A stretch of 64,000 bases of DNA, taken from positions 105,128-169,127 of the forward strand of contig CAYYQK010000002.1 in the NCBI GenBank assembly GCA_964473815.1. The letters run 5' to 3'. The position numbers and the translations under genes are program-made. This DNA comes from an uncultured Candidatus Saccharibacteria bacterium (GTDB lineage: Bacteria; Patescibacteriota; Doudnabacteria; UBA920). Positions 4,636-63,599 of this stretch are shown one piece after another. Under the pieces are notes generated by a model. It was not told the DNA's origin, did not search any database, and saw only the letters and a program-made list of their open reading frames with translations. Each line of letters opens with the position of its first letter. Within the stretch, counting starts at the first letter, position 1.

Positions 4636-4658
4636 TAGTCTAGTAACTGTTTTATGAG

Positions 4659-6558: not shown

Positions 6559-6574
6559 CTTCACCTTATAAAAC

Positions 6575-6615: not shown

Positions 6616-6765
6616 TATAACCCCCAAATCACAGTCTCTAGATTCTGGGTTTAGGGATTATTGAACAATACTATCTTATATAAGAAATATAGTCAATTCA
6701 TATCATTTGTACATGAAATGTATATCTATTATACCATATTCTTATCCACAACCTTTAACACCCTT

Positions 6766-9267: not shown

Positions 9268-9672
9268 TTGCCTAACCCCTACTTTGTAGGATATGGCATT
9301 AAATCCGATCAAGATATAGAACCTCTCGTCAGGGTCCTTGATCGGTCGTATCTGGAAACGGATATGTTGATCCGAAAGGGTCAAACTTGGCGGGGGGCTT
9401 TTTGTTCCCCAGTCATACAATTAAAACCGATCAAGGAAATGTCTAAATTGAATACTAAAAAAGTAATAGGTTTCCTATTACGACCTTTGTCATTATTTAT
9501 AGTATTGGTGCTACTGTACTGGGGGTTTACTTCTTCTGGAGATGTTAAGGAAATAGCGTTGAACTTCATTATTATTGCTATGTCCATAATGGTTGTCGGA
9601 ATTATATTTAATGATGTTTGGGATAGTGATGAAGTGCCTAATTGGATTCGTAAGTATTTTAGAAAGAGATAA
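9268..9672 (+). CDS. hypothetical small membrane protein
   Basis: 134-aa ORF with TM helices (LLRPLSLFIVLVLLYWGF; IIIAMSIMVVGIIF). Confidence 0.3.
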   Translation: MPNPYFVGYGIKSDQDIEPLVRVLDRSYLETDMLIRKGQTWRGAFCSPVIQLKPIKEMSKLNTKKVIGFLLRPLSLFIVLVLLYWGFTSSGDVKEIALNFIIIAMSIMVVGIIFNDVWDSDEVPNWIRKYFRKR

Positions 9673-10235
9673 TGTCAGCAGAATTAATAACATTTTTCCA
9701 TAACTCCGACGAATTACGTTCGGAGTTTTCTCATAAGGATTCAAATAGACCATGTTTCTATTGGTTTGCTGACAGATTCCATAGTCATACTGGTTATCTA
9801 AAAAAAGATAAGTATTTCTATATGTTTGTAAAAGACCCAATTAAAGAATCAATCACATTAATACCTCGTAATAATGAGGACCATAGTTTTCATGCTTTGT
9901 ACAACGACTTCCTTTTCTTTAAACACAATACAGATTATCAGGAATATTTAGAGCCTCCTATTTTAATGTCGTATGATAGAATCGTTCCTGATTTGATTGC
10001 AGAATACTCAGAAGAAACAAATGAGTATAAGATTGTGAAACCAGATATCTTTAAACATATGCGATTCAAGTTATATGACGATTCATATAAACATCAATGG
10101 GCTAAAGGTCCAAAATTTACAGATATTCAAGTATTGAATAAATCGCTCCCTTTACTAGCAAATTCATTGCCGCTAACTGATCCTAAAATCAGAAATGGAA
10201 AGTATATTTTCAAAAACTGGTTAGGTGCATATTAG
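9672..10235 (+). CDS. hypothetical protein
   Basis: 187-aa ORF in island, start overlaps preceding ORF. Confidence 0.4.
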   Translation: MSAELITFFHNSDELRSEFSHKDSNRPCFYWFADRFHSHTGYLKKDKYFYMFVKDPIKESITLIPRNNEDHSFHALYNDFLFFKHNTDYQEYLEPPILMSYDRIVPDLIAEYSEETNEYKIVKPDIFKHMRFKLYDDSYKHQWAKGPKFTDIQVLNKSLPLLANSLPLTDPKIRNGKYIFKNWLGAY

Positions 10236-10371
10236 TGCATATTTTGAAAAACTAAGATTACGTCACTTTAGGTCGTAATTAAATACCTTTGATAATTAGG
10301 TTAAACGCTATGTATTTCGCGCAAAACTAGCTCAAATTCATGCGTTTATATCGGAAACCAAGAGTTATATA

Positions 10372-10400
10372 TTGACGCACAGAAAACTCTAAAGTACAAT
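10372..10400 (+). promoter_or_regulatory. sigma70-like promoter (TTGACG-17-TACAAT)
   Basis: near-consensus -35/-10 with 17-bp spacer upstream of 10511 ORF. Confidence 0.4.
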
Positions 10401-10510
10401 GCTTTTACTGGATAAAGAAAATTAGAGAAGAAACCTCTCGTTTCGGCAACTAATGCCCCAGATAAAAAACTCGTGCTAACCATGGCACCATAATTAAGTT
10501 TTTTATCGGG

Positions 10511-10882
10511 GTGTTGTTTTTTACCAACACACTCGATGTTGGTTTTATTATGCCTAGAATAAAGTTTGGTTATGATTCAAATTACATTAAAGTGTATGGA
10601 CGAGCTCAATCGCATTTCAATTTAAGACCCATAGAAGGTTTACTTTTGGGTTTGGTAGAAAGTATGTCTTCTCAAAAAGGTTATTGCTATGCAACCAAGG
10701 AAACTTTGGCAGGAATATTGAATGTAAATACAAGCACTGTCTATTACACAATGAACAAGTTAATTAGAAAAGGTTTATTGATTTCCAAACCAGTAGGATT
10801 CAGTAAAGCGCAATTAATGTGTACAGATGAATGGTATGACTTTATAGGAGAACTTAGACAAAGTTTTTCGCCAGATGATTAA
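10511..10882 (+). CDS. winged-helix DNA-binding protein (MarR/PadR-like), possible island regulator; start may be 10550
   Basis: motif ETLAGILNVNTSTVYYTMNKLIRKGLL resembles wHTH recognition helix. Confidence 0.4.
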   Translation: MLFFTNTLDVGFIMPRIKFGYDSNYIKVYGRAQSHFNLRPIEGLLLGLVESMSSQKGYCYATKETLAGILNVNTSTVYYTMNKLIRKGLLISKPVGFSKAQLMCTDEWYDFIGELRQSFSPDD

Positions 10883-11407
10883 TGTCAATTTGTGGTTCTA
10901 GATCCATTTAGCCTCCGAATTTCAGAATGGCCCTATTAAATTCAGAGTCCTAAGACTATGAAATTAAAAGTAAAAATACTCTTAAATTCAGAGCTAATAT
11001 ATATAATCATATTTATAAATCATATTTAAAGATTAATACCCATATTTTGTAAAATATACAAAATATGGGAAACAGCACAAGATAATGAATCAAATAAATG
11101 AAAAACAAATACAAGAATTTATAGATCTATATAAGTTAAAGTATGGAGTAACTATAAGTCGTGAAGAAGCTATCATTCAATCAAGAAAATTATTAGATCT
11201 TGTTAAGCTTGTTTATAAACCAATAAAAAAAGATTCTGATAAAGAGTAGTTGTCCCCCGTGCCAAGAGGAATCGTATCAGTGATAATGTAATTAACAACT
11301 ATCACGTGCCTAGCTAACAATTTGTTTTGATAATTCCTTTATTGGAATAGTCTTTATCTGAAACATTGGGTTCGGATAGTTGTTGAGACTATTCCTTTTT
11401 TGTATTT

Positions 11408-13081
11408 ATGAAAGTATCTAATCCAAAACTTAGATATGTGGTTTATGCACGTAAATCCACTGATTCCGAAGATAGACAGGTTCAATCAGTAGACGACCAA
11501 TTAAGAGAGCTAGAACCAATTATTACCCAAAACAGCCTAAATGTAGTTAGGTATTTTGAGGAATCTAAGTCTGCCAAAAGACGTGGAAGACCAATGTTTA
11601 ATGAAATGATGGATATGATTCAAAATGGTAAAGCTGATGGTATTATTTGTTGGAAACCAAATCGGTTATCCCGTAATGCATATGACGGAGGACTGATACA
11701 AGGAATGCTTACTGATAATATTATTCAATCCATAGTTACTCCATCTAAAGAGCATTTGCCCCAAGATAACGTTATGTTATTAACTGTTGAATTAGGCATG
11801 GCTAATCAGTTTAGTTTGGATTTGGGGCGTGATGTTAGCCGTGGAATGCAGAGTAAAGCAAATAAAGGGTGGTTACCTGAGAAAGCACCACTAGGATACC
11901 TTAACGATCCGCTAGGTTTGAAAGGTGAAAAGAAAATATTTATTGATGAGGAAAGATTCCCATTAGTTAGAAAAATGTGGGACTTGATGTTAACAGGAAA
12001 CTATACTGTTAAGCAATTAAGAGATCTTTCCCATAATGAATGGGGTTTGAAGACAAGGGCTAGTAGGAATCTATCTAGCAAGATGCTAAGTCTGAGCGGA
12101 GCGTATAGAATATTCACAAATACATTTTATTATGGCGAGTATTCATATAAAGGAGAGGTAATTCAAGGTAAACATCAACCCATGGTAACTAAGGAAGAAT
12201 TTGATCGAGTCCAAAAGTTACTTGGTAGAGCTGGTAAACCGAGACCTAAATATAAACGATTGCCATTTAATGGTGTGATTAGATGTGGAGAATGTGGATC
12301 CATGATTACTTGTGATGAGAAAGTGAAACGTTCAAAACAACCAAATGTACAGCCAAAGCATTATTTATATCACAGATGTACAGGTAAGAGTCATGATTCT
12401 TGTTTTCAAGAACCAATCACCTATCAGGATCTAGCTAATCAAATTACTGGTTATCTTGGTAGTATTACTATATCTCAAGAACTATTAGAATGGTCATTAA
12501 AAATATTGCGTCAAAATAATCAAATAGAAGACACTAATCGCTCCATAATAATAAAAAACCTAAAAAAAGATTTGGAGTCCGTTTCAGAAAAGAATAAGAA
12601 TTTGATTGATCTCTTTCTTTCAGGAAGTAATAAAGATCGAAGTATGCTCACTGAAGAAGAATATATCAATCAGAAGAATACTTTTACAGCTGAGAAATCT
12701 AGAATTGAAGGTGAATTAAGAAAAATTGAAACTAATGACGGTGGTTTACTTGAGTTAACTGAGAAGACATTTGAGTTTGCTACTTATGCTAGATCTCATT
12801 TCCAAAATGGCGACTATGAAACACAAACTCGTATATTACTGAATCTTGGGCAGAAAATAGTCTTAAAAGATAAAAAGCTAGTTATAGAATTACAGAAACC
12901 TTACTCAATTATAAAAAATGGACTAGAAAAAATGAGTTCAATTATGATATCGGTCGAACAAGAAGAACGCCTTATACCTAAAAGGAAAAACACTCCTTTA
13001 GAGAGTGTTTATTCCATGTGGAGCGGCCAAGGGGAATCGAACCCCTATCCCTTCCTTGGCAAGGAAGAGTTCTACCATTGA
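11408..13081 (+). CDS. large serine recombinase (resolvase/invertase catalytic domain + recombinase domain + zinc ribbon)
   Basis: N-terminal YVVYARKSTDSEDRQ...SVDDQ catalytic-Ser motif; CGECGS...HRCTG zinc ribbon; coiled-coil C-terminus; last ~63 nt overlap tRNA-Gly on opposite strand. Confidence 0.85.
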   Translation: MKVSNPKLRYVVYARKSTDSEDRQVQSVDDQLRELEPIITQNSLNVVRYFEESKSAKRRGRPMFNEMMDMIQNGKADGIICWKPNRLSRNAYDGGLIQGMLTDNIIQSIVTPSKEHLPQDNVMLLTVELGMANQFSLDLGRDVSRGMQSKANKGWLPEKAPLGYLNDPLGLKGEKKIFIDEERFPLVRKMWDLMLTGNYTVKQLRDLSHNEWGLKTRASRNLSSKMLSLSGAYRIFTNTFYYGEYSYKGEVIQGKHQPMVTKEEFDRVQKLLGRAGKPRPKYKRLPFNGVIRCGECGSMITCDEKVKRSKQPNVQPKHYLYHRCTGKSHDSCFQEPITYQDLANQITGYLGSITISQELLEWSLKILRQNNQIEDTNRSIIIKNLKKDLESVSEKNKNLIDLFLSGSNKDRSMLTEEEYINQKNTFTAEKSRIEGELRKIETNDGGLLELTEKTFEFATYARSHFQNGDYETQTRILLNLGQKIVLKDKKLVIELQKPYSIIKNGLEKMSSIMISVEQEERLIPKRKNTPLESVYSMWSGQGESNPYPFLGKEEFYH

Positions 13082-13092
13082 ACCATGGCCGC
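13019..13092 (-). tRNA. tRNA-Gly (GCC)
   Basis: cloverleaf read by eye: acceptor GCGGCCA/TGGCCGC, anticodon loop TTGCCAA, T-loop GGTTCGATTCC, encoded CCA. Confidence 0.85.
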
Positions 13093-13122
13093 ACGCTATT
13101 ATAAATATAAGTAAATTTTTGC

Positions 13123-13197
13123 TGGTGCCGCGAGTCAGAATTGAACTGACGACACGACGCTCTTCAGGCGTCTGCTCTACCACTGAGCTACCGCGGC
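13123..13197 (-). tRNA. tRNA-Phe (GAA)
   Basis: acceptor GCCGCGG, D-arm GCTCAGTGGTAGAGC, anticodon loop CTGAAGA, T-loop TTCAATT, CCA. Confidence 0.85.
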
Positions 13198-13220
13198 ATA
13201 AATGTGGTTTTAATTTTTGT

Positions 13221-13297
13221 TGGTGGGCGATAAAGGATTCGAACCTTTGACATCTTCGGTGTAAACGAAGCGCTCTGACCAGCTGAGCTAATCGCCC
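13221..13297 (-). tRNA. tRNA-Val (TAC)
   Basis: acceptor GGGCGAT/ATCGCCC, anticodon loop TTTACAC, T-loop GGTTCGAATCC, CCA. Confidence 0.85.
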
Positions 13298-13332
13298 TAA
13301 TGTTCGCTTGTGCGAAAACTTTGTAAAATTTT

Positions 13333-13419
13333 TGGTGCCCGAGAGAGGACTTGAACCTCCACGGGATTAATCCCACTACCACCTCAAGGTAGCGCGTCTG
13401 CCAGTTCCGCCACCCGGGC
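13333..13419 (-). tRNA. tRNA-Leu (GAG), long variable arm
   Basis: acceptor GCCCGGG, anticodon loop TTGAGGT, long extra arm, T-loop GGTTCAAGTCC, CCA. Confidence 0.85.
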
Positions 13420-13497
13420 TTGGGAACAATTTATCCAAAAATCCTTCTAATTATAGTGCAGATTATGGAAATTGTCCAGTCTCTCTTAATTTTGATG

Positions 13498-14448
13498 CTA
13501 GATAACCTTCCAATGCCCGCGATCATCTTTGGCTAAACGACCGTATAAAGAAAATCCGGCTGCGAGTTTGTGTCCCCCGCCACCCAAAGATTGGGCAATA
13601 GCTTGCACATCAACCCCTTTGTACTCTTCACTGCGCAAGCTGCCTTTAATCAGATCTTCTTTTTCTTGTTTTAAAAACATTGCAAATTTGGCCTCCGGAA
13701 CCTTATTTAAGGTTTCGGCGATACCTTCAAAAGCAGACATTGGCGGATTACCCAAAGATGCCAGTTCATCGCTGGTGATAACTGAATAGATCATTTTTTT
13801 GACTGGATCGTAGTGTGCATTTCCCAGCGCATGCGCCCAGGCTTTTAAACTTTCTAAATCTTTAGTTTGGTAAGTGTGTTTTGTGATAGTCGATACCCGC
13901 GCGCCGTGTTCCATTAATTCCGCTGCAGCTGCGAGCGTGCTCGCCTCTGTGTTGCTGTGCATAAAAATTCCTGTATCAGTAATAATTCCTGTCAGCATGC
14001 ATAGCGCAATGTCATGCGTAATTTCCCAACCGCAAAATTTAAAAAAATCATAAGTTAGTTCAGCTACCGCAGATTTAGTAGAATCAACCACATTCACTGT
14101 ACCGTAATTGGTATTGTCTGGATGATGATCTAAATTAATAATTGGAATTTTTAATTCCATAATTTCTGCGTGTCCCACGCGAGCCAAACTACTACAGCCA
14201 GAAATTACTAATACATCAAATTTTTCATTGGGTAATTTTTCTAGAACTTTGTCCGACATTGGTAAATATTTCAAAGCATCGGGAACACCGCCTTCAATTA
14301 CAACGGCAACCTTTTTGCCAATGCCAGAAAGAAAATTGCCCAAAGCTAAAACCGAACCGAGGTCATCACCGTCGGTTCTCATGTGCGTAGTTAATAAAAT
14401 TGTATTGCTTTCTTCAAGCAATTTTTTAGCCTGTGCAAATTCTGTCAT
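13498..14448 (-). CDS. nrnA: DHH/DHHA1 phosphoesterase (NrnA-like oligoribonuclease/pAp phosphatase)
   Basis: DHH motif (LDHHPDN), DGDDLGS, C-terminal GGGGH (DHHA1). Confidence 0.75.
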   Translation of the reverse strand: MTEFAQAKKLLEESNTILLTTHMRTDGDDLGSVLALGNFLSGIGKKVAVVIEGGVPDALKYLPMSDKVLEKLPNEKFDVLVISGCSSLARVGHAEIMELKIPIINLDHHPDNTNYGTVNVVDSTKSAVAELTYDFFKFCGWEITHDIALCMLTGIITDTGIFMHSNTEASTLAAAAELMEHGARVSTITKHTYQTKDLESLKAWAHALGNAHYDPVKKMIYSVITSDELASLGNPPMSAFEGIAETLNKVPEAKFAMFLKQEKEDLIKGSLRSEEYKGVDVQAIAQSLGGGGHKLAAGFSLYGRLAKDDRGHWKVI

Positions 14449-54828: not shown

Positions 54829-55338
54829 ATGTTAATTATTCGTTTACAACGTGCTGGTAAAAAGAATAAAGCTGATTTCCGGCTTGTTCTTGCGCAAAAG
54901 ACCGCTGCTAGCCAAAAGAAATTCACTGAAGTAATGGGTTCTTACAATCCACATACTAAGAATTTGCAAATCCGTGATCAGGAACGTTTGAACTATTGGG
55001 TTAATGACCAACATGTAGAAGTCTCTCCTACTGCTTACAACCTTCTTGTTGCTAAAGAAATCATCAAAGGTGATAAGAAAAAAGCATTCACAATTCCTAA
55101 AAAGGAAGTAGTGGCTGAAGAGCCAGCTGCCGAAGCTCCAGTTTCAGCAGAGGGTGCAGCAGTAGAAGAGCCGGCAACTGAAGCAGTTCCAGCAGAAGAA
55201 ACTGCTGCATCTGAACCAGCAGCAGAAACACCGGCAGAAGCTGAAGCTCCAACCGTAGAACCTGTGGCTGAAGAGCCAGCAGCTGAGCCAACTCCAGAAT
55301 CAACCGAACCTGCTGAAACAACTGAATCACAAGAATAA
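54829..55338 (+). CDS. rpsP: 30S ribosomal protein S16 with C-terminal Pro/Ala/Glu-rich repeat extension
   Basis: MLIIRLQRAGKKNKADFRLVL N-terminus; C-terminal EPAAE/PAEE repeats. Confidence 0.9.
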   Translation: MLIIRLQRAGKKNKADFRLVLAQKTAASQKKFTEVMGSYNPHTKNLQIRDQERLNYWVNDQHVEVSPTAYNLLVAKEIIKGDKKKAFTIPKKEVVAEEPAAEAPVSAEGAAVEEPATEAVPAEETAASEPAAETPAEAEAPTVEPVAEEPAAEPTPESTEPAETTESQE

Positions 55339-55343: not shown

Positions 55344-55368
55344 AAACCCGCCGAGAGCGGGTTTTAAA
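55344..55368 (+). terminator. rho-independent terminator (aacccgc-cgaga-gcgggtt + T-run)
   Basis: 7-bp GC stem then TTTAAAAT after rpsP. Confidence 0.7.
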
Positions 55369-55456: not shown

Positions 55457-55951
55457 ATGAACAACAATAAGAAATGGTTGGCAATTGCAATATTAGTTGT
55501 AGTCGCTGCCGCAGCCTGGTTTTTGCTAGTGAAAATCGATAAAAAGAATTCGAGCAAGAATGTTAAGACTGCACCAATTGTAAAGACCACAAAGACAGAT
55601 GTGGACTTTTCGCGTGCCCCAGAAAAATTCCCAGCAGAAATTCCGATCGAAAAGGACGCAAACATTACCCAAAACTATAACGCAACAACAACTAACGGAA
55701 TCTTCCAAGCAACTAGAGTTTTTGAAAGCTCAAAAGCATCAGCAGACAACTTTAGTATTTACAAAGATTTCATGACTAAGAATGGCTGGCAGATCACTTC
55801 AACTATTGATAAGCCAAATCTAAAGTCATTGGTTGGAACAAAGGGCGCAGAAACTCTCTTGGTGAATATTACTGAAAATACTGTTAACCATAAGAAAACA
55901 GTCAGTATTAACTATAGTACTGATACTCGCGTAAAGGCAACAACAAAGTAA
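55457..55951 (+). CDS. small N-terminally anchored secreted protein, paralog A (shares FPAEIPIE motif with 59665..60144)
   Basis: N-terminal TM/signal anchor; central conserved motif; start trimmed to MNNNKKWLAIAILVVV. Confidence 0.45.
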   Translation: MNNNKKWLAIAILVVVAAAAWFLLVKIDKKNSSKNVKTAPIVKTTKTDVDFSRAPEKFPAEIPIEKDANITQNYNATTTNGIFQATRVFESSKASADNFSIYKDFMTKNGWQITSTIDKPNLKSLVGTKGAETLLVNITENTVNHKKTVSINYSTDTRVKATTK

Positions 55952-55969: not shown

Positions 55970-57166
55970 ATGCACAAAAATATCCAAAATGTAGTTGTAA
56001 GAGTTCTTATTGTACTAACTGCATTACTAAGTTTGCCCGCGACACTAGTAACCACGAAAACAGTTCAGGCTAGCACTTGTGTTGGTTTATGTGAGCCGGA
56101 TGTTAACTATGTTAACAATGGTAACAACAATTTTACCGTTAAAGCCAATGAATCGCTCATGTATAACGCATGCAGCTATGATAATAATAATGGCTTGGAT
56201 GAGGCATATGTATCTGAGAATATTTCTTCGAGCTTTGGTATTTACTTCTTCGGAACTCAAGATCCAGGCAATACTCACACAGCTTACGAGCCGGATATTT
56301 CTATGCCTTACGCGCCAGGCCATACCGATGGTTGGACTTATTGCGGTTTCCCAGCCACTCCAACGGTTCCTACGTGGGCTGGTACATCAGAAAGAACCTT
56401 TAATATACCATCTGGTGAGTCTGGGTTCTTTGTGGGGTTTTTCACTCACGTAACTAGGTGGGAACGCCACCAAGGCGAATACGTTCCACAACAGGATGAA
56501 GATCAATTTGTCATAGTCTTGCAGTACACAGGACCAACCCCAAATTTGAGTTGCACCTTCTTACAGGCCACCCAAAGAATTTATCAAGGTGACTCCGTTG
56601 CTTATTCATTTAAAGTTGATACAGATAAACCTGGGTTTAGTTCTCCGGTAGCACTCTCGGCAAGTATCAGACCAGCATCGAGTGGTAACCAGGTTTCCCC
56701 ATCAGTAAGTATTGATCCGTCATACAACAACAAAGTACCCCCAACAACAGGAGTACTGCTAGTGAATGCGCCGGATAATACAACGCCGAATGATAAATAC
56801 GTTATTACAATGACAGCGACTGGAGGAGGTCAAACAAAAACTTGTATCACCAATTTGGATGTCAAAGAATGGAATCCAGATTTTCAATTACGCATAGAAC
56901 CGGATCAAAAAATGGTAAACGCTGGCCAAATAGAAGAGTACGAAGTATTCGCTGACTGCACAGGAAGTTTTGATGGCGATATAACAGGCTTAAAAGTACA
57001 GTCAACCTTTGTAAACCCTATTATAGAGTTGGGCGCAACTACTTTGCATTGCGGAAGAACAACAACAGTGAGTATAGATACATCTTCAATACCTGAGGAT
57101 CAAAGATCTAATTTAGCTACCCCTACATATCAAAACCTGACAGTAACAGGATCCGCTAATTTATAG
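55970..57166 (+). CDS. secreted hypothetical protein (signal peptide)
   Basis: 398-aa ORF with N-terminal signal peptide ending ...KTVQA. Confidence 0.5.
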   Translation: MHKNIQNVVVRVLIVLTALLSLPATLVTTKTVQASTCVGLCEPDVNYVNNGNNNFTVKANESLMYNACSYDNNNGLDEAYVSENISSSFGIYFFGTQDPGNTHTAYEPDISMPYAPGHTDGWTYCGFPATPTVPTWAGTSERTFNIPSGESGFFVGFFTHVTRWERHQGEYVPQQDEDQFVIVLQYTGPTPNLSCTFLQATQRIYQGDSVAYSFKVDTDKPGFSSPVALSASIRPASSGNQVSPSVSIDPSYNNKVPPTTGVLLVNAPDNTTPNDKYVITMTATGGGQTKTCITNLDVKEWNPDFQLRIEPDQKMVNAGQIEEYEVFADCTGSFDGDITGLKVQSTFVNPIIELGATTLHCGRTTTVSIDTSSIPEDQRSNLATPTYQNLTVTGSANL

Positions 57167-57172: not shown

Positions 57173-59644
57173 ATGAAAATAAACACAAAAAAACAAATTT
57201 CAATTTTCAAATACGCTGTCAATAGTTTTGTAGCGGCTTCCATTTTATTTGCTCCAATAGTCTCAAATGTCGCTCCTGTAATTAACACTGCGAAAGCAGA
57301 GGTTAGCTGTACTGACGACGCTTTGCCTATCCCAACTGCGGACATGACTGTCCGTAAGGATAATGCACAGGGCGAGGTTTTAGGTACTTACCATGCACGT
57401 GGGGCAATTGATAGCCCTGATGATCCTGGCAATGGCGAAACAGGCGTTGCTACTTTCCAACTTCAAGTCCCAAAAGGTACCAAATTATATTTTACTGCCC
57501 GCACTGACGGATTTAATGGTCCAAACAGAAGTGTTGGCGGCATGCCTAACTATAGTGGCGGTGGAGTGACAGTAACATCTCCAGACGTAAAAGCTGGCTA
57601 TTACCCAAACGGCTTTTCATTTAGTCGTCTCGATGCAGTTACCGGATTAAGTGATCGGGTTATCAACGGTCCGGTGAGTTTAGGCATGGGTGGTGATTGG
57701 AGTTGTTGGGGTGGAGATCGTGACTCACACGTGCAATTAATAGTAAATGTTGTCACTAAACCATCCACTAATTTAGTTACTCGTACAGCTACAACAAATT
57801 TAGCCGTAATTAATGATCCTGCAGTGTCCTCTCATTGCTCTTCTGCGAATGACCCTGGGAATAATTCAACTTGTCGAGTTGATCTTAATGACGGTGCTAC
57901 TATAAGCTGGAATGCCGAATCAACCACTAATGGAAATTCTTGTATCGCTACGAATGATAATACCTCGAGTAACCCAGACTCAAATTGGAATGGAGCAAAG
58001 GATGGAACAAGTGGAACTCAGGCAGTTGGGCCATTTCCTTCATTGGGAACCTTTACATATCAAATTAAATGCACCGGATTAAACGGTGTAACTTCAACTC
58101 CTTCTACAACAACATTTATTGTTGGAAACACCCCTTCGTACACTTGTCAGGTCGTTCCTTCAGGTATACAACAGGTAGACCAGGGTGGTTACGGCGCAGC
58201 TAGTTTGCATGTAACATCTTTGAGTGGTTACAATAAACCAGTAACCTTCTCGCCTGCGATTGTTTCTCCTTCCGGTGCTGGCTCGCCACAGGTGACAATT
58301 GAAGGTAATAATCCTCAGAACTCCCCATATGCTACAAACAGTCCTGTCTCAATTTTCGCCCCTGCAAACTCGGCTGTGGGTACATACACAATCACCTTTA
58401 AAACTGAAGATGGTATTGTATGTGATGGTAATGTAACTTTGCAAATAAACTCTGCAGCAGACCCAGACGGTTACATTTACTGTGGCGCTTCCGGAGCACA
58501 AACAACTTGTAAAATTAATGGCGGCGATAGTATCCCTATTCGCTGGCATGCTGAAAATGTAAATAATGATTGTGTGGTCATTGCAACTGCTAATGATGAT
58601 ACTCAGTTTGATTTTGCCACAGGCAAAGATGGTAATAAGAGTTCGGGGCCACTGAGCAAGCCAACTCAGTTCTCCTTGGGCTGTAGCGCATCAAATGGAC
58701 ACCAGGATCTTGTCCGGACTGCCTTTGTCGATATTACTTCTATTTGTACCGTAAACTGTGGAACCGGCATGTCGTTGACGGCAAGTAATTCTACTTGTGA
58801 ACAAGTTAACTTGAGCTGGTCTTCAACAGTGAATCCAGCACCAAAGAGCTACAAGCTATTTCGTAGTTTAGACGGCAATACTTATGCGGAATTTGCTACT
58901 GTGAACGATCCAACTAACACATACGTCGATAGACCTCCACAACAACTAGGGGTGTCGAATTATTATAAAATTCAAGCTTACAATGACTATAACGGAAATG
59001 GTTCTGTTGTAGCCAATGGCTCTTCCCAGGTAGTGCCCGTTCCTTGTGCTACCCCGAGTTTGGAAGGTTCTGATAAAGATGTAACAAACAGCAAGGGTAA
59101 AATTACAAAAGCGTTTAACCCACCACCTTGTAATGGTGTGTCAGATTTTGCAGTATTGCCAAACAATGCAATCTTCACTGCTGGCGATGAAGTGACCTTT
59201 AAGATTAATATTTGTAATCCTGCTGATCCTAACACTCCACCTCAGCGCGCAGACCTTACAAATATCACCGTTGAAGATACAATGCATAATCTTTCTGCGC
59301 CTACTTCTATAAAGAGCATGAGTTCAAATGGGGGTGGGACCCGTGGAGCTCCTTGTTTGCTGAGCAGTCAAGCACAGGACAATACTGACGGTGACTTTAC
59401 TGGTTTTATTACGTTTACTGTGAAGGATATACCTCGGGCAAACTTAGGGCAGTATTGTTCAATTATAATCACTGCTAAAATTCAAGCACCTCTTAACCCA
59501 ACTGCATCGATTTACCGCTTCTGGAATGAAGCAAAAATTACTGCCACTGGAAATGGTCAAACGATTACAAAGACCGTGAAAACACCTTTGTATCCATTTG
59601 GTTTAACAAATGTACCAAATCGTAACGAAACCTCTCCTCATTAA
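57173..59644 (+). CDS. large secreted Cys-containing repeat protein (Ig-like 4-Cys repeats, FN3-like domain, DUF11-like domain) with conserved C-terminal tail ...VPNRNETSPH
   Basis: signal peptide; repeated C...C..W...C modules; C-terminal 60 aa paralogous to 60146..63073. Confidence 0.6.
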   Translation: MKINTKKQISIFKYAVNSFVAASILFAPIVSNVAPVINTAKAEVSCTDDALPIPTADMTVRKDNAQGEVLGTYHARGAIDSPDDPGNGETGVATFQLQVPKGTKLYFTARTDGFNGPNRSVGGMPNYSGGGVTVTSPDVKAGYYPNGFSFSRLDAVTGLSDRVINGPVSLGMGGDWSCWGGDRDSHVQLIVNVVTKPSTNLVTRTATTNLAVINDPAVSSHCSSANDPGNNSTCRVDLNDGATISWNAESTTNGNSCIATNDNTSSNPDSNWNGAKDGTSGTQAVGPFPSLGTFTYQIKCTGLNGVTSTPSTTTFIVGNTPSYTCQVVPSGIQQVDQGGYGAASLHVTSLSGYNKPVTFSPAIVSPSGAGSPQVTIEGNNPQNSPYATNSPVSIFAPANSAVGTYTITFKTEDGIVCDGNVTLQINSAADPDGYIYCGASGAQTTCKINGGDSIPIRWHAENVNNDCVVIATANDDTQFDFATGKDGNKSSGPLSKPTQFSLGCSASNGHQDLVRTAFVDITSICTVNCGTGMSLTASNSTCEQVNLSWSSTVNPAPKSYKLFRSLDGNTYAEFATVNDPTNTYVDRPPQQLGVSNYYKIQAYNDYNGNGSVVANGSSQVVPVPCATPSLEGSDKDVTNSKGKITKAFNPPPCNGVSDFAVLPNNAIFTAGDEVTFKINICNPADPNTPPQRADLTNITVEDTMHNLSAPTSIKSMSSNGGGTRGAPCLLSSQAQDNTDGDFTGFITFTVKDIPRANLGQYCSIIITAKIQAPLNPTASIYRFWNEAKITATGNGQTITKTVKTPLYPFGLTNVPNRNETSPH

Positions 59645-59664
59645 TAGTTTTTAATTAAAACACA

Positions 59665-60144
59665 ATGAACAAAAGACTCTTAGTTCTTGGTGGTGTACTT
59701 ATCGTACTCATAGTTGCGGTTGGTGCTTATTGGCATTCACCCCACAAAAACGCAAGCATGCCTGACAATGTTATTACAAAGCAAAGTCAAACTACGGGCG
59801 CAAAGAAAGATGTAGATGCAGAGCAGCTGCCAAAAAACTTCCCTGCTGATATTCCAATCGAAGAAGGTGCTTCTGTTGTCCAAAACTTTAATGTTGATGA
59901 TAAAGGTTACCAGCAAGCAACCCGGTCTTTTGAAACACAAGTAAGTCTTGATAAAAACTTAGCGCTGTACAAAAAATATTTAACCGCAAACGGTTATAAA
60001 ATTACTGTTACTATAGACCAGCCGACCTACAAAATGGTCTCTGGTACTAAAGACAAAGATAATTTACGCATTGAAATGACTGATAATTCAGTGTCTAAGC
60101 AAAAGACAGTGAGTATCACATTCATTCAAACGGGATCAAACTAA
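59665..60144 (+). CDS. small N-terminally anchored secreted protein, paralog B
   Basis: MNKRLLVLGGVLIVLIVAVGAYW anchor; FPADIPIEEGASVVQNFN motif matching 55457..55951. Confidence 0.5.
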   Translation: MNKRLLVLGGVLIVLIVAVGAYWHSPHKNASMPDNVITKQSQTTGAKKDVDAEQLPKNFPADIPIEEGASVVQNFNVDDKGYQQATRSFETQVSLDKNLALYKKYLTANGYKITVTIDQPTYKMVSGTKDKDNLRIEMTDNSVSKQKTVSITFIQTGSN

Positions 60145-60145
60145 A

Positions 60146-63073
60146 ATGTTAAATATCAATTACTTATTCAATAGTAAGTTTCTAAAAACAGTCATTTTTA
60201 GTGCGGCTTTTCTATTTGCGTTTATTGCCTTTGCCATGGTTTCTAAGCCACACGCAGCCCATGCGGCAGTGCAGGATTTTACCATTAGTTGTAACAGCTA
60301 CCAACAATCAGGAATAACTGTTATGGCCGGGATCTCTACGGGTATGATAATTAGAATTTCAGGACCAAATAATTCTACATACACCGGTCCGGCAATTACA
60401 GTTACTCCATCGATTTCTCCAACTCCAGCAAGCGGCGCACCTACATACACATATGAAAACAACCCCACTACTGACTCCTGGCTATATACAGTAGTAAAGA
60501 TAAAGACATATAATTCGCCTCAAACAACACCGGGTACTTATGTAATGACCTTTACTGGATCTAACGGAACCTATTCACATTCTTGCAGTTGGAACTTTTA
60601 TGTTACTGCCTATAACGCATCTGTTAGTGGTGCAACTATGAAATGCAATGGCAGTACCAATCCTTGTAATGTAGGTTACAATGACCGTCCAGTGGTTTCA
60701 TGGACAAGTTCGGGAACTACTAATTGTTTTGTCTATGGCCCACCTGATACAAATTATTCAAGCAACCATACAGGGTCATCAGGTAGTTATACCGCGTATA
60801 ATTTTCAAGATGAATCAGAATTTATCGAATTAAATTGCTGGAAGAGTGATTGGTCTGCTAATTTTGGAACTATAGCCTCGAACTCCATTAACACCTTGCC
60901 GTATGCGGATATACACTGTGGGAGCTATCAAACTGCTTGTACCATTAATGCCGGAGATTCAATAAATATTTCTTGGTTTAGCATGCATGCTTTTAGCTGC
61001 ACAGTATCTCCTCCAGGTTGGACCGGTACCGGTACAAATTCATACACCAGATCAAGTGGTCCACTGGTGGCAACCACAACCTTCACCTCAACCTGTACCG
61101 GGTATAACGGTGGAACTTCCTCGGCCAGTGTAACAGTTACAGTCATCCCAGGTCCGTACGGGATCATCACATGTAATGGCTCAGATACTTGCACGATTCC
61201 ATACAATACTGCAGCGACAATTGCGTGGAGCTCTAACCAAGCTACATCATGTTCGATAACACCGTCAGGATGGACTGGTACTTCGGGCTCTAGGTCTACT
61301 GGTAATTTAACCTCGGATCAAACTTACACAATTAATTGTAGTGGTGCTGGTGGTGCGATGACGCCTCATACTGCTACGGTGACAGTTTCTCCTCCGCCTT
61401 TGCCTACCGGTACTATTACTTGTAATGGCGCATCTAGTTGTACAATAGCTTATAATTCTGCGGCTACAATTGCCTGGACTACCTCTGCTGCAACTTCGTG
61501 TACGGTAACTCCTTCGAATTGGAGTGGGACTTCTGGCTCAGTATCTACTGGCAACTTAATTTCAACAACTACTTATACAGCTAATTGTTCAGGCCCGGGT
61601 GGCAATGCTACTATTGGTTCTGTTGTGGTAACGGTTTCACCTCCACCACCGGTAACTGGAAATATTCTGTGTAATGGCGGCGGCAACTGTTCTATTAACT
61701 ACAATACGAGCGCTACTATCTCATGGTCATCTGCAAATGCAACTTCTTGTTCAGTTGCTCCAAACAGTTGGACCGGTCTCAGCGGTTCTCAGTCAACCGG
61801 AAACTTAACATACACAACAGTTTACACTTTAAGTTGTACAGGACCAGCTGGACCACTAAGTCCGCAGCCTTCTGTAACAGTAACAGTGCTTACAGACTTT
61901 ACTTTGAACTGTACGCCAATGACTACAGCTATTGCTTTGGGTGACACAACTTCGTTCCAACTGGCTGTTACCAGACAGGGAATTGGTACTGTCACTTTTG
62001 CAGCTCCTACATTTAGTCCAAATAATGCCAATAATCCGTCTAATTCGTATGTGAATAATCCGAATGCTAGTGGTAGTGGTGTTACCTCTTCAGTAATTTC
62101 TACCACCATGGGTACAACTTTGGCGGCTCCTTATGTAATTACTTTTTCAGCCAGTGCTGCTGGCGCCACCGGCACCGTAACTCATACTTGTACAGTAAAT
62201 CTATACATTTCTGCAACACCTCCAGTTCAGCCAACTAATATTGTTGCTTCCAACCAAGTTTGTGAAACCGTAGATCTTACTTGGGATAAGGGCGCAGGCA
62301 CAACTCCTGCTGGTTACCGTGTTTACCGCCGTACCCAAGGTACTGGCACAGCAACTGATTCCTGGAATCGCGTTGGTTCAGATATCCCTACCACAGGGGC
62401 AACTAGTTATAGCTACCATGACGGAGGTCCATTGTTGGTTCATGGCTCTAACTATTACGCCGTATCTTCTTATGATGTTAATAATTTGGAATCTGCCAAA
62501 GCTAATGCAAGCCCATCATCAATTGTTCCAAGATATTGTGGACCAAGCTTAACAGCTTCTGACATCGATTTGACTCAGGTTGCCGGGCATATAACCAAAT
62601 CATTTACCGGACAGGCATGTAGTGGTACTTCCGAAGTTGCATCATTGCCAGCAAACAGTTTGTTCTCACCAAATGACACCGTTACCTTTACATTGAACAT
62701 TTGTAATTCCGGTACACAAGATATGACAGGTATTGTAGCGCACATCACTGCGGCGAATTTGACCAACTATTCAATGCTGGTGCAACCAAGCCCAGCAGGT
62801 TGCGCGACCATTACAAACCTTTCTTCTACCGCAATGGACTTCACTGTAAATACTTTAACCGCTCCACCACTTGGAGTAATTGCTACTTCTTGTACAATTA
62901 CTTACCGCGCAACTGTAACCTTACCTCCTGGAGTAAGTAACCAGTATCAGCGCTTCCAAAGCGTGGCTGACGTAACAGCTGATGGTGGCTTGAGTGACCA
63001 CATTGTTACTCCAACCTATTTGTTTGGCACGGGACAAAACCAGCCGAACCGTAACGAAACCTCTGCTCATTAA
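60146..63073 (+). CDS. giant secreted Cys-containing repeat protein (at least 5 tandem ~75-aa 4-Cys Ig-like repeats, FN3-like, DUF11-like) with conserved C-terminal tail ...QPNRNETSAH
   Basis: signal peptide/TM at N-terminus; near-identical internal repeats ITCNG..C.I.YN..ATI.W....ATSC...P..W.G..GS.STGNL....YT..C.G; shared C-terminal domain with 57173..59644. Confidence 0.6.
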   Translation: MLNINYLFNSKFLKTVIFSAAFLFAFIAFAMVSKPHAAHAAVQDFTISCNSYQQSGITVMAGISTGMIIRISGPNNSTYTGPAITVTPSISPTPASGAPTYTYENNPTTDSWLYTVVKIKTYNSPQTTPGTYVMTFTGSNGTYSHSCSWNFYVTAYNASVSGATMKCNGSTNPCNVGYNDRPVVSWTSSGTTNCFVYGPPDTNYSSNHTGSSGSYTAYNFQDESEFIELNCWKSDWSANFGTIASNSINTLPYADIHCGSYQTACTINAGDSINISWFSMHAFSCTVSPPGWTGTGTNSYTRSSGPLVATTTFTSTCTGYNGGTSSASVTVTVIPGPYGIITCNGSDTCTIPYNTAATIAWSSNQATSCSITPSGWTGTSGSRSTGNLTSDQTYTINCSGAGGAMTPHTATVTVSPPPLPTGTITCNGASSCTIAYNSAATIAWTTSAATSCTVTPSNWSGTSGSVSTGNLISTTTYTANCSGPGGNATIGSVVVTVSPPPPVTGNILCNGGGNCSINYNTSATISWSSANATSCSVAPNSWTGLSGSQSTGNLTYTTVYTLSCTGPAGPLSPQPSVTVTVLTDFTLNCTPMTTAIALGDTTSFQLAVTRQGIGTVTFAAPTFSPNNANNPSNSYVNNPNASGSGVTSSVISTTMGTTLAAPYVITFSASAAGATGTVTHTCTVNLYISATPPVQPTNIVASNQVCETVDLTWDKGAGTTPAGYRVYRRTQGTGTATDSWNRVGSDIPTTGATSYSYHDGGPLLVHGSNYYAVSSYDVNNLESAKANASPSSIVPRYCGPSLTASDIDLTQVAGHITKSFTGQACSGTSEVASLPANSLFSPNDTVTFTLNICNSGTQDMTGIVAHITAANLTNYSMLVQPSPAGCATITNLSSTAMDFTVNTLTAPPLGVIATSCTITYRATVTLPPGVSNQYQRFQSVADVTADGGLSDHIVTPTYLFGTGQNQPNRNETSAH

Positions 63074-63224
63074 TTTCTACAAAATAGATTTATCTAAAAG
63101 TCACACCTGTAGGGTGTGACTTTTGACATCAGAAAATAAAAATGGTATGATGTTGGGGCAATAGAGGCTTACATGCAAGGTCGAAGCCGCTCTCCTATAG
63201 CAGAAATACTTAACTGAAAGACAC

Positions 63225-63599
63225 ATGGAGAAAGATCAAGAATTTGTTGAATTTATCATCAAGGCGTTAGTAGATAATCCACAAGATGTTCGCACTGATC
63301 GCACTGTTGATGAAATGGGTGTGTTAATCACTCTTCACATCAATCCTGCTGACATGGGCCAAGTAATTGGTCGCATGGGTCAGACTGCAAAAGCAGTTCG
63401 AACATTGTTGCGCGTAGTTGGTGCGAAGCACAAAGCTCGTGTGAACTTGAAGATTGATGAACCAGAAGGTTCTCACCGTGGACCTCGCCGCGATCGTTCT
63501 GAACAACGCGATGATATGGGTGCATCTGATGCCGGCGACGCTGGCAACAACGATGCCGAAATGGCCGGTGCTCCGGACATGGACGACTTCAAGCTTTAA
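63225..63599 (+). CDS. KH-domain RNA-binding protein (KhpA/YlqC-like) with disordered acidic/basic C-terminal extension
   Basis: KH motif MGQVIGRMGQTAKAVRTLL; normally encoded next to rpsP. Confidence 0.75.
   Translation: MEKDQEFVEFIIKALVDNPQDVRTDRTVDEMGVLITLHINPADMGQVIGRMGQTAKAVRTLLRVVGAKHKARVNLKIDEPEGSHRGPRRDRSEQRDDMGASDAGDAGNNDAEMAGAPDMDDFKL

What the first reader, a model, noticed from the sequence alone, without database searches (positions are those of the whole stretch)
59560..63073. Shared C-terminal tail ...TP.Y.FG......PNRNETS(P/A)H on two giant surface proteins: candidate novel sorting or anchoring signal
The proteins ending at 59644 and 63073 both terminate with the motif (V/Q)PNRNETS(P/A)H, the final residue being the C-terminus. 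This follows a homologous ~150-aa C-terminal domain (C.(T/G)PSL..SD.D.T...G.ITK.F......C.G.S.....LP.N..F...D.VTF.(I/L)NICN). The tail is not LPXTG, PEP-CTERM, a GlyGly-CTERM or a TM anchor. A strictly conserved extreme-C-terminal peptide on paralogous cell-surface proteins typically marks recognition by a dedicated processing or attachment machinery.
Basis: seen in the sequence. Interest (0 to 1): 0.6.

Follow-up and report, generated by a model that had tools for sequence, protein, structure and literature searches.

The report
Conserved C-terminal tail on Saccharibacteria adhesins
Two secreted surface proteins of an uncultured Saccharibacteria (CPR) bacterium end in a short peptide (P-x-R-x-E-T-[AS]-P) that is kept at the very C-terminus of a whole unannotated protein family and always comes with a small membrane-protein gene, so it is probably a new, sortase-independent way of holding adhesins on the cell, although the mechanism is not shown.

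Summary
ORF A (57173..59644, 823 aa) ends VPNRNETSPH and ORF B (60146..63073, 975 aa) ends QPNRNETSAH.

The tail is not a duplication relic. An exhaustive profile search found about 120 clusters at 50% identity with the same ~180-aa domain, always last in the protein. 116 of them carry P-x3-E in the last 22 residues. The Glu is invariant, and 2-4 residues usually follow it.

The domain is a divergent CLIPPER/DUF11 (CnaA-fold) domain. Its Lys and Asn co-vary as expected for an intramolecular isopeptide bond; A keeps both and B has lost both. AlphaFold models the domain confidently but leaves the tail unpacked. No transmembrane segment, LPXTG or other known sorting signal is present.

All named hits are Saccharibacteria/Patescibacteria MAGs. 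The genes sit in one conserved slot between rpsP and the khpA-like KH-domain gene. In 17 of 17 loci with upstream DNA, a gene for a ~160-aa membrane protein lies upstream on the same strand. It has an N-terminal TM helix and a weakly Mog1/PsbP/DcrB-like ectodomain. No enzyme gene co-occurs.

Best reading (inferred): the tail is the cell-proximal retention motif of fibrillar adhesins and probably docks on the co-encoded membrane protein. A transpeptidase substrate remains a live rival. The family and the tail appear undescribed.

The parts
54829..55338 (+). rpsP (ribosomal protein S16, 169 aa with an acidic extension). It is the upstream border of the conserved slot.
   Evidence: Pfam PF00886 and TIGR00002. 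It holds the same position in all related loci.
55457..55951 (+). fam0 copy 1: small bitopic membrane protein of 164 aa, with an N-terminal TM helix, a linker and an alpha/beta ectodomain ('QAT' subtype).
   Evidence: Translation. Gene call with PF27226. Family alignment. fam0 HMM E = 5e-49.
55970..57166 (+). 398-aa secreted protein without the tail (ends ...LTVTGSANL). Counterparts of 350-400 aa occur in L007, L008, L010 and L015.
   Evidence: Only weak Ig-like similarity to A. No Pfam or PDB sequence match.
57173..59644 (+). Protein A, 823 aa: signal peptide, variable Ig-like region, FN3-like domain (about 58760..59032), CLIPPER-like C-terminal domain, tail.
   Evidence: (P0001).
59033..59641 (+). 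C-terminal domain of A (residues 621-823). It has a CnaA/CLIPPER-type beta-sandwich and keeps the Lys (SDKD) and Asn (RFWN) of the predicted isopeptide bond.
   Evidence: AF2 pLDDT 89.3, pTM 0.86. Foldseek matches to pilin CnaA domains. K/N covariation. Family members match DUF11.
59612..59641 (+). Tail of A: VPNRNETSPH, then TAA at 59642..59644.
   Evidence: pLDDT 54-67 over the last ~14 residues. Family statistics.
59665..60144 (+). fam0 copy 2 (159 aa), whose stop lies 1 nt before the start of B.
   Evidence: (PF27226). AF2 model with pLDDT 82.7. Foldseek result.
60146..63073 (+). Protein B, 975 aa: signal peptide, repeated Ig-like modules, FN3-like domain (about 62213..62521), CLIPPER-like C-terminal domain, tail.
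   Evidence: (P0002).
62522..63070 (+). C-terminal domain of B (residues 793-975). This is the isopeptide-less variant: SDID replaces SDKD and RFQS replaces RFQN.
63041..63070 (+). Tail of B: QPNRNETSAH, then TAA at 63071..63073.
63098..63151 (+). Hairpin (GTCACACC-TGTA-GGGTGTGAC, then TTTT) followed by a strong promoter-like site (TTGACA-17-TATGAT). It marks the downstream end of the module.
   Evidence: Sequence. Promoter scan, 11 of 12 matches. The hairpin was read by eye and was not scored by the terminator scan.
63225..63599 (+). KhpA-like KH-domain protein. It is the downstream border of the conserved slot.
   Evidence: Pfam PF13083. It holds the same position in all related loci.

Best explanation
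SHOWN.
- A and B are paralogous members of an unannotated protein family found in Saccharibacteria/Patescibacteria.
- Members are Sec-secreted. They have a variable N-terminal array of Ig-like domains and a conserved C-terminal module: an FN3-like domain, one divergent CLIPPER/DUF11 (CnaA-fold) domain, and a 10-12-residue tail.
- The tail consensus is G-G-V-P-x-[RK]-x-E-[TVI]-[ASG]-P-(x), and the protein ends there.
- In most members the last domain carries the Lys/Asn pair of an intramolecular isopeptide bond. A has the pair; B has lost both residues.
- The tail is predicted to be flexible, has no membrane-spanning segment and matches no described sorting signal.
- In every locus with upstream DNA, a gene for a ~160-aa bitopic membrane protein (fam0) lies upstream on the same strand, immediately upstream in most cases. 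fam0 has a TM helix, a ~25-aa linker and a ~110-aa alpha/beta ectodomain.
- The whole module sits in a fixed slot between rpsP and the khpA-like gene.

INFERRED.
- These are fibrillar adhesins of an epibiotic bacterium. The variable N-terminus points outward and the conserved C-terminal module is the cell-proximal end.
- The tail is the retention or anchoring motif, recognised in trans as a short linear peptide.
- The most likely receptor is the ectodomain of the co-encoded fam0 protein. fam0 would then be a non-covalent membrane anchor or adaptor that replaces the LPXTG-plus-sortase arrangement of other monoderm adhesins.
For: Family and position: a profile search of 1.84e9 representatives gave 124 hits, and in nearly all of them the domain ends at the last or next-to-last residue. 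The tails are listed.

Tail conservation: Glu is present in 114 of 114 aligned sequences and the Pro four residues before it in 110 of 114. Both are better conserved than the isopeptide Lys and Asn, each 106 of 114. P-x3-E occurs in the last 22 aa of 116 of 120 members, and 2-4 residues follow the Glu in 101 of those 116.

The tail is not part of the fold: the AF2 domain model has pLDDT 89 overall but 54-67 over the last ~14 residues. The tail is also kept in members that lack the isopeptide pair, such as B.

Fold of the last domain: Foldseek matches CnaA-type domains of Gram-positive pilins and adhesins (probability 1.0, TM 0.37-0.47). 37 of 43 family domains match PF01345 DUF11, best E = 9e-11. 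DUF11 was renamed CLIPPER and shown to be an isopeptide domain of adhesin stalks that is normally followed by a sorting domain (PMC12617251).

Isopeptide pair: 105 of 114 sequences have both Lys and Asn. Of the 8 that lost Lys, 7 also lost Asn.

No known signal: Pfam and NCBIfam return nothing for A or B. The window has no LPXTG-like end and no sortase TLxTC motif.

Partner gene: fam0 was found in all 17 loci that hold at least ~3 kb of DNA upstream of the tail-bearing gene, including a distant member in a different genomic context (L017/L018). The four loci without fam0 are cut at the contig end. Start and stop codons abut or overlap (59665..60144 then 60146; L005 7533-8018 then 8018).

fam0 structure: TM helix 5-23, disordered 24-45, ectodomain pLDDT above 90. 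The best matches are Mtc28, PA1624, EagT6, LpqN, PsbP, Mog1 and DcrB, which are envelope or protein-binding adaptors rather than enzymes. The window's fam0 copy 2 has no Cys.

Variable versus conserved ends: A and B are significantly similar only over the last ~320 aa.

Taxonomy: all 9 hits among GTDB species representatives are Saccharibacteria or Patescibacteria MAGs.
Against: - No interaction between the tail and fam0 was tested.
- fam0 genes also precede tail-less secreted proteins (the 350-400-aa proteins and the 465-559-aa 'fam16' proteins). fam0 may therefore recognise something other than the tail, or act as a general chaperone.
- The Foldseek matches for fam0 are weak (E = 0.008-0.1, TM 0.3-0.45).
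- The number of residues after the Glu varies from 1 to 16. This fits a cleaved leaving group as well as it fits a docking peptide.
- Low pLDDT shows only that the tail is not packed in the monomer model.
- There is no expression, localisation or mass-spectrometry evidence.
Confidence: 0.4

Rival explanations
1. The tail is the substrate motif of an unidentified extracellular transpeptidase or protease. The enzyme would cut after the invariant Glu, or nearby, release the 1-4-residue end as a leaving group, and join the protein covalently to peptidoglycan, a lipid or another subunit.
For: The motif is always terminal. The stretch after the invariant Glu is short and of variable length (1-16 residues, mostly 3-4), as with leaving groups in sortase, asparaginyl-endopeptidase or D-Ala-D-Ala chemistry (my knowledge). 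The preceding domain has the CnaA fold typical of sortase substrates. CLIPPER adhesins normally end in a sorting signal (PMC12617251).
Against: No hydrophobic segment holds the precursor at the membrane. No protease or transpeptidase gene appears in any of 17 conserved neighbourhoods, whose flanks are housekeeping genes (RNase III, SMC, S16, KH, TrmD, pseudouridine synthase, L19). The window has no sortase signature. The N-terminal regions are not conserved, so there is no obvious shared acceptor site for polymerisation. NCBIfam has no model for the tail. An enzyme encoded elsewhere in the genome cannot be excluded.
Confidence: 0.2
2. The tail has no trans-acting partner. It would be an intrinsic cap of the last domain, for example protection against carboxypeptidases through the terminal Pro, or a transient contact with the domain's edge strand.
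For: The tail is Pro-rich and usually ends -A-P or -P-x. It directly follows the conserved last strand TPPYLF. Members of the family differ widely elsewhere.
Against: AF2 does not pack it (pLDDT 54-67). Glu (114 of 114) and Arg/Lys are more conserved than the core isopeptide residues, which is unusual for a passive cap. Protease protection would not need an invariant P-x-R-x-E register. The strict co-occurrence with fam0 would be left unexplained.
Confidence: 0.15
3. The tail mediates subunit-subunit assembly. It would dock into a neighbouring secreted protein (the co-encoded tail-less 350-560-aa proteins, or another copy) to build a filament or surface lattice, by analogy with the donor-strand-exchange Pam pili recently described in Saccharimonadia.
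For: Tail-less Ig-like secreted proteins are encoded in the same modules. Saccharimonadia build pili from Ig-like subunits with membrane-anchored chaperones and no usher (bioRxiv 10.64898/2026.03.03.709456). The slot next to a ribosomal-protein gene is consistent with high expression (inference).
Against: The tail is polar and Pro-rich and lacks the alternating hydrophobic pattern of a donor strand. Pam pilins donate an internal linker strand, their chaperones have two beta-barrel domains and a C-terminal TM helix, and the pam operon lies next to ATP synthase genes. None of this matches the present locus. Some loci (L002, L004) have a single tail protein and no tail-less partner other than fam16.
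Confidence: 0.1
4. The shared tail is only duplication history of two paralogs and has no function of its own.
For: A and B are tandem paralogs.
Against: The same tail core is kept in about 116 clusters that are below 50% identical to each other, and in many genomes. The two window copies differ by synonymous changes within the tail.
Confidence: 0.01

Closest known systems
CLIPPER (DUF11, PF01345) / CLIPPER_2 (DUF7507) CnaA-like isopeptide domains of fibrillar adhesins (Costa et al., Protein Sci 2025, PMC12617251)
   Same: The fold is a beta-sandwich of CnaA type. A first-strand Lys and a late-strand Asn co-vary. Disulfide-forming Cys residues are present. The domain occurs in secreted, multi-domain adhesin-like proteins. 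37 of 43 family domains match the DUF11 HMM.
   Different: The family has a single copy that is always the last domain, not a tandem stalk repeat. It is larger (~180-200 aa versus ~120). It is followed by a conserved 10-12-residue tail instead of LPXTG, Por_secre_tail, CHU_C or an archaeosortase signal. The window's own two copies are too divergent to hit the Pfam model.
Sortase-dependent LPXTG cell-wall sorting signal of Gram-positive pilins and MSCRAMMs
   Same: It follows a CnaA-type domain at the extreme C-terminus of a Sec-secreted adhesin in a monoderm-type bacterium, and it marks the conserved, cell-proximal end.
   Different: There is no LPXTG, no hydrophobic segment, no basic stop-transfer end and no adjacent sortase gene. 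The conserved core is P-x-R-x-E.
Pam pili of Ca. Mycosynbacter amalyticus (Troman et al., bioRxiv 2026, 10.64898/2026.03.03.709456)
   Same: Both are CPR/Saccharimonadia-specific surface structures. Both use Ig-like secreted subunits with paired Cys residues, have small membrane-anchored accessory proteins encoded alongside, and lack a trans-envelope machine.
   Different: The genomic slot differs (ATP synthase neighbourhood versus rpsP-khpA). The accessory proteins differ (PapD/FimC-like two-domain chaperones with a C-terminal TM helix versus a single Mog1/PsbP-like domain with an N-terminal TM helix). The paper reports no CLIPPER domain and no conserved C-terminal tail.
Mog1/PsbP/DcrB (DUF1795)-like envelope proteins: LpqN, Mtc28, DcrB, EagT6
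   Same: The fam0 ectodomain has a beta-hairpin, a helix and a four-stranded sheet topology, and these proteins are its best Foldseek matches. They are membrane- or lipid-anchored envelope adaptors or chaperones that bind other proteins.
   Different: The matches are weak (E = 0.008-0.1). fam0 is anchored by an N-terminal TM helix rather than a lipid. There is no sequence similarity.

Membership tests
CLIPPER / DUF11 (PF01345), CnaA-like intramolecular isopeptide domain | Match to the Pfam DUF11 / DUF7507 models | tested here: inconclusive
   37 of 43 family C-terminal domains match PF01345 at E <= 1 (best 9.4e-11), and 32 match DUF7507. The window's A and B give no Pfam match at E <= 0.1. Membership therefore holds by transitive profile homology only.
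CLIPPER / DUF11 (PF01345), CnaA-like intramolecular isopeptide domain | CnaA-type (DEv-IgG) beta-sandwich fold | tested here: met
   AF2 model with pLDDT 89.3 and pTM 0.86. The top Foldseek PDB matches are CnaA-type domains of SpaA, SpaD, BcpA, S. sanguinis PilA/PilB and ACE19, with probability 1.0 and TM 0.37-0.47. The TM scores are moderate.
CLIPPER / DUF11 (PF01345), CnaA-like intramolecular isopeptide domain | Lys (first strand) and Asn (late strand) pair forming the isopeptide bond | tested here: met
   The pair is present in 105 of 114 sequences, and 7 of the 8 that lost Lys also lost Asn. Protein A has both residues and protein B has neither. The bond itself is not observable with these tools.
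Sortase LPXTG sorting signal | LPXTG-type pentapeptide followed by a hydrophobic segment and a basic end | tested here: not met
   The proteins end 3-4 residues after the Glu, with no hydrophobic stretch. A regex scan of the window finds no LPXTG-like ends and no TLxTC sortase motif.
Exosortase/archaeosortase/rhombosortase signals (PEP-CTERM, PGF-CTERM, GlyGly-CTERM and relatives) | Short motif plus a C-terminal TM helix plus an Arg-rich end; recognised by NCBIfam/TIGRFAM models | tested here: not met
   There is no TM helix after the motif. NCBIfam release 20 gives no hit for A or B.
T9SS C-terminal domain (Por_secre_tail) | ~80-aa beta-sandwich CTD matching PF18962/TIGR04183; Bacteroidota host with PorU/PorV | tested here: not met
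   There is no Pfam or NCBIfam match. The hosts are Saccharibacteria MAGs.
Pam pili (CPR donor-strand-exchange pilins) | Two-domain pilin with a linker donor strand and a truncated Ig C-terminal domain; PapD-like chaperones with a C-terminal TM helix; operon beside ATP synthase genes | tested here: not met
   The locus lies between rpsP and the khpA-like gene. The accessory protein has an N-terminal TM helix and a single alpha/beta domain. Sequence identity to PamA/PamB could not be tested because those sequences were not retrievable.
Mog1/PsbP/DcrB-like fold (for the fam0 partner) | Structural match to Mog1p/PsbP/DUF1795 proteins | tested here: inconclusive

The most novel reading that the evidence does not exclude
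The P-x-R-x-E-[TV]-[AS]-P tail together with the co-encoded bitopic Mog1/PsbP-like protein could be a previously unrecognised surface-protein anchoring system of Patescibacteria that needs neither a TM segment nor a sortase. In this reading the small membrane protein is the dedicated receptor, or the platform for covalent attachment, that holds host-binding fibrillar adhesins on the epibiont cell.
Probability: 0.3. Interest if true: 0.75.

Novelty: new variant of a known kind. Interest (0 to 1): 0.55.

Why it matters
Saccharibacteria and other CPR bacteria live attached to host bacteria. How their adhesins are displayed is largely unknown beyond type IV pili and the newly described Pam pili.

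This module is conserved, sits in a fixed slot beside ribosomal-protein genes, and is unnamed by every source checked. It has a variable outward-facing part and a strictly conserved C-terminal module.

If the tail and its small membrane partner are an anchoring system, three things follow:
- a sequence rule (domain plus P-x-R-x-E at the C-terminus) for finding surface adhesins across CPR metagenomes;
- a handle for releasing or tagging these proteins in the few genetically tractable strains;
- a new solution to the general problem of retaining secreted proteins on a monoderm cell.

If the tail turns out to be a transpeptidase substrate, it would point to a new ligase chemistry with possible use as a tool.

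Tried and rejected
1. Word-indexed homology search with the 199-aa C-terminal domain of A found nothing, and with the 43-sequence profile only one protein. The family was only visible to the exhaustive HMMER search.
2. The first genome-contig scan, using the two-sequence alignment, found no relatives because the pattern N[VQ]PNRNET was too specific. The 43-sequence alignment was too diverse to give a pattern. A 10-sequence alignment worked.
3. The metagenome-contig scan added only two loci, both like L009.
So was a fam0 alignment built from locus translations. The interaction therefore remains untested.
6. Stop-codon read-through or frameshift into a hidden TM anchor is rejected. Both genes end in TAA (A ends in TAA followed by TAG). 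The next gene after A is in another frame, and after B there is a hairpin and a promoter. In other loci the tail gene is followed directly by the KH-domain gene.
7. The tail as an N-glycosylation sequon (N-E-T) is rejected. Most family members have D-R-T-E-T or similar, without Asn.
8. The tail Glu as the catalytic acid of the isopeptide bond is unlikely. The tail is unpacked in the model and is kept in members that have lost the Lys/Asn pair.
9. PDB sequence searches with the CTD profile, the fam0 profile and the 398-aa protein gave nothing significant.
10. Literature searches for Saccharibacteria with S-layer, DUF11, sortase/adhesin or isopeptide found no description of this family.
Full report
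1. THE OBSERVATION

ORF A (57173..59644, 823 aa) ends ...TPLYPFGLTNVPNRNETSPH. ORF B (60146..63073, 975 aa) ends ...TPTYLFGTGQNQPNRNETSAH. Both are followed by TAA. A six-frame scan finds no other NRNET-type string in the 64-kb window.

BLASTP aligns the last ~320 residues of A and B at 33% identity, E = 4e-33. The rest of the two proteins shows only weak, repeated Ig-like similarity.

Nine of the last ten residues are identical. The Pro and Asn codons of the two tails differ synonymously. Both proteins start with a Sec-type signal peptide (read). Two corrections apply: the conserved domain is ~180-200 aa rather than ~150, and the proteins are large rather than giant.

2. IS THE TAIL MORE THAN DUPLICATION HISTORY?

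Yes. A word-indexed search found nothing. An exhaustive HMMER search of 1.84 billion cluster representatives, using the A/B profile, found 124 proteins at E <= 1e-3, of which 73 were at E <= 1e-10. In nearly all of them the domain ends at the last or next-to-last residue.

Their C-termini read ...YRFQN.A.I.......V.TPPYLFS..GGVP[DN]R[NT]E[TV][AS]P[QNH-]. Four hits were set aside as unrelated.

In a 114-sequence alignment:
- the tail Glu is present in 114 of 114;
- the Pro four residues upstream in 110 of 114;
- Arg or Lys two residues upstream in 99 of 114.

Among 120 family members, 116 have P-x3-E within the last 22 residues. The number of residues after the Glu is 3 in 59 members, 4 in 32, 2 in 10, 1 in 4, and 5-16 in 11.

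The literal NRNETS.H is a local variant.

3. WHAT IS THE DOMAIN IN FRONT OF THE TAIL?

Pfam and NCBIfam return nothing for A or B. However, 37 of 43 family C-terminal domains match PF01345 DUF11 (best E = 9.4e-11), and 32 match DUF7507. These families were recently renamed CLIPPER and CLIPPER_2. They were shown by crystallography to be CnaA-like domains with an intramolecular Lys-Asn isopeptide bond. They typically form the stalks of fibrillar adhesins and are followed by a sorting domain (PMC12617251).

An AF2 model of A's last 204 residues is confident (pLDDT 89.3, pTM 0.86, ten strands). Its best PDB matches are CnaA-type domains of sortase-assembled pilins and MSCRAMMs, with probability 1.0 and TM 0.37-0.47: S. 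sanguinis PilA/PilB, SpaD, SpaA, BcpA and ACE19.

The Lys of the near-invariant SDKD motif (first strand) and the Asn of RFQN co-vary. 105 of 114 sequences have both, and 7 of the 8 that lost the Lys also lost the Asn. This is the pattern expected for an isopeptide pair. Protein A keeps both (SDKD, RFWN). Protein B has lost both (SDID, RFQS). Four to five conserved Cys residues suggest disulfides. An FN3-like domain precedes the domain.

4. THE TAIL ITSELF

In the AF2 model the last ~14 residues have pLDDT 54-67, against above 90 for most of the domain. The tail is therefore not predicted to pack on the domain.

It is polar and Pro-rich. It has no hydrophobic segment and is not LPXTG-, PEP-CTERM- or GlyGly-CTERM-like. 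NCBIfam has no model for it.

It is kept in members that have lost the isopeptide pair, so its role is separate from that bond. A peptide that is disordered, always terminal, and better conserved than the core residues of its domain behaves like a linear motif read by something else.

A hidden TM anchor reached by read-through or frameshift is excluded by the sequence downstream of both genes and by the gene order in other loci.

5. WHOSE GENES ARE THESE, AND WHAT SURROUNDS THEM?

The window's contig is a 205-kb metagenome assembly (ENA ERZ15185866). A scan of one genome per GTDB species found nine loci. All are titled uncultured Candidatus Saccharibacteria or Patescibacteria group. Two more came from metagenomes and several from exact look-ups.

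In every Saccharibacteria locus the genes occupy the same slot: RNase III, SMC, rpsP (S16), the module, a KH-domain (KhpA-like) gene, trmD, a pseudouridine synthase, rplS.

The module holds one to three tail-bearing proteins. L008 has three, and L003, L015 and the window have two. Tail-less secreted proteins of 350-400 aa or 465-559 aa are sometimes present as well.

Every module also holds genes for a ~160-aa protein that I call fam0. In most cases this gene lies immediately upstream of the tail-bearing gene. In the window they are 55457..55951 and 59665..60144, and the second stops one base before B starts. The precomputed annotation gives it PF27226.

An HMM for fam0 finds it in all 17 loci that have at least ~3 kb of DNA upstream of the tail gene. 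That includes L017/L018, where a distant family member (tail APNREEVAP) sits in a different genomic context. The four loci without fam0 are cut at the contig end.

No protease, sortase or transpeptidase gene occurs in any of these neighbourhoods. The window has no sortase signature and no LPXTG-like protein. No source checked gives any of these proteins a name.

6. THE PARTNER PROTEIN

fam0 has an N-terminal TM helix (residues 5-23), a disordered linker (24-45) and a well-predicted ectodomain (pLDDT above 90). The ectodomain has a beta-hairpin, one helix and four more strands.

Conserved positions include P..FP.D.P.E.G, QN[YF], G...Q[AS]T[RK], Y and GW. The window's copy 2 has no Cys.

Sequence searches against Pfam and the PDB are empty. 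Foldseek gives only weak matches (E = 0.008-0.1), but they are consistent: Mtc28, PA1624, EagT6, LpqN, PsbP, Mog1, DcrB and TiME. This is the Mog1/PsbP/DUF1795-type fold of envelope adaptors and chaperones, not an enzyme fold.

Two subtypes exist:
- The 'QST' type directly precedes isopeptide-competent tail genes.
- The 'QAT' type precedes tail-less proteins or isopeptide-less tail genes such as B.

7. HOW IT MOST LIKELY WORKS

Shown: the family, its architecture, the fold, the Lys/Asn covariation, the conservation, position and flexibility of the tail, the absence of known signals, and the strict fam0 linkage.

Inferred: these are fibrillar adhesins of an epibiotic bacterium. The variable N-terminal part faces the host, and the conserved FN3-CLIPPER-tail module is the cell-proximal end. 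The tail is the retention motif.

The most economical receptor is the co-encoded, membrane-anchored fam0 ectodomain, acting as a non-covalent anchor or adaptor. I put this at about 0.4. A looser claim, that some trans-acting factor reads the tail to retain or attach the protein, I put at about 0.6.

Main weaknesses:
- fam0 also precedes tail-less proteins.
- The variable number of residues after the Glu fits a cleaved leaving group equally well.

Rivals: a substrate for an unlinked transpeptidase or protease (0.2), an intrinsic cap with no partner (0.15), subunit-subunit docking in a filament or lattice (0.1), and mere duplication history (refuted).

8. COMPARISON WITH WHAT IS KNOWN

The last domain is a divergent member of the CLIPPER/DUF11 superfamily. 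What is new is its fixed terminal position, the tail, and the partner gene.

The arrangement works like the C-terminal sorting signals of monoderm adhesins but fails every defining feature of LPXTG, exosortase-type and T9SS signals (see the membership table).

The Pam pili preprint (10.64898/2026.03.03.709456) shows that Saccharimonadia assemble Ig-like surface filaments using membrane-anchored accessory proteins without a trans-envelope machine. This is conceptually close. However, the pam operon lies beside ATP synthase genes, its chaperones are PapD-like with C-terminal TM helices, and the paper mentions no isopeptide domain and no conserved C-terminal tail.

I found no paper describing this family, the tail or the rpsP-khpA module.

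9. VERDICT

I rate it as a new variant of a known kind, namely a C-terminal anchoring signal on an adhesin. Interest is 0.55: a clear and testable lead in a poorly understood and topical group, with the mechanism still inferred.

Noticed in passing
window 63225..63599; also the KH-domain genes of L002-L012, L015, L016, L019: The KhpA-like KH-domain protein has an acidic C-terminal extension ending ...PDMDDFKL. The extreme C-terminal D(M/V)DDFKL is kept in all Saccharibacteria loci examined. This is a second conserved terminal peptide, here on a cytoplasmic RNA-binding protein.
   Followed up: no
window 62522..63070 (B) versus 59033..59641 (A): B has lost both residues of the predicted Lys-Asn isopeptide pair (SDID, RFQS), while A keeps them. 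Across the family the two losses go together in 7 of 8 cases. An isopeptide-less sublineage therefore exists and still keeps the tail.
   Followed up: yes
window 55457..55951 and 59665..60144; fam0 genes of L002-L010: fam0 comes in two subtypes. The 'QST/VLQNYES' type lies directly before isopeptide-competent tail genes. The 'QAT/ITQNYNAT' type lies before tail-less 350-560-aa secreted proteins or isopeptide-less tail genes. Both window copies are the QAT type.
   Followed up: partly
window 55970..57166; L005 5884-7410, L006 5880-7382, L009 5047-6726, L016 8282-9883: Tail-less secreted proteins share the module: ~350-400 aa ending ...VTGSANL or ...VQGQGN, and 465-559 aa ('fam16'). Their mature sizes resemble the PamB (38.7 kDa) and PamA (55.3 kDa) pilins of M. 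amalyticus. Relatedness could not be tested because the Pam sequences were not retrievable.
   Followed up: partly
window 54829..55338: Ribosomal protein S16 is 169 aa. The S16 domain covers only residues ~4-78 and is followed by a long acidic, low-complexity extension.
   Followed up: no
window 55344..55364 and 63098..63151: The usual rpsP-khpA-(rimM)-trmD-rplS gene string is interrupted by the ~7.6-kb surface-protein module. A GC-rich hairpin follows rpsP. After B there is a hairpin and then a near-consensus promoter-like site (TTGACA-17-TATGAT with TG) ahead of the KH-domain gene.
   Followed up: partly
window 9269..9383: A LOOT RNA (Rfam RF03000) is present at 76 bits against a gathering score of 46.
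   Followed up: no
window 1..13500: G+C is 0.33-0.36 over the first ~12 kb, against 0.40-0.43 elsewhere. A large serine recombinase gene (11408..13081) abuts a cluster of four tRNA genes (13019..13419). This may be an integrated mobile element.
   Followed up: no
L013 168-956, L020 892-1770: Some 'short' family members in the protein database (P0101 at 262 aa, P0105 at 292 aa) are fragments cut by contig ends, not small proteins. The open frames run to the contig edge.
   Followed up: yes
L017 1073-1819 and L014/L017 PaaX_M-like genes: Distant family members with tails ...PSIIEVAP or ...APNREEVAP lie outside the rpsP-khpA slot, next to DsbA-like and PaaX_M-like genes. Their taxon is unknown. 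A fam0-like gene is still present 2.8 kb upstream in L017/L018.
   Followed up: partly
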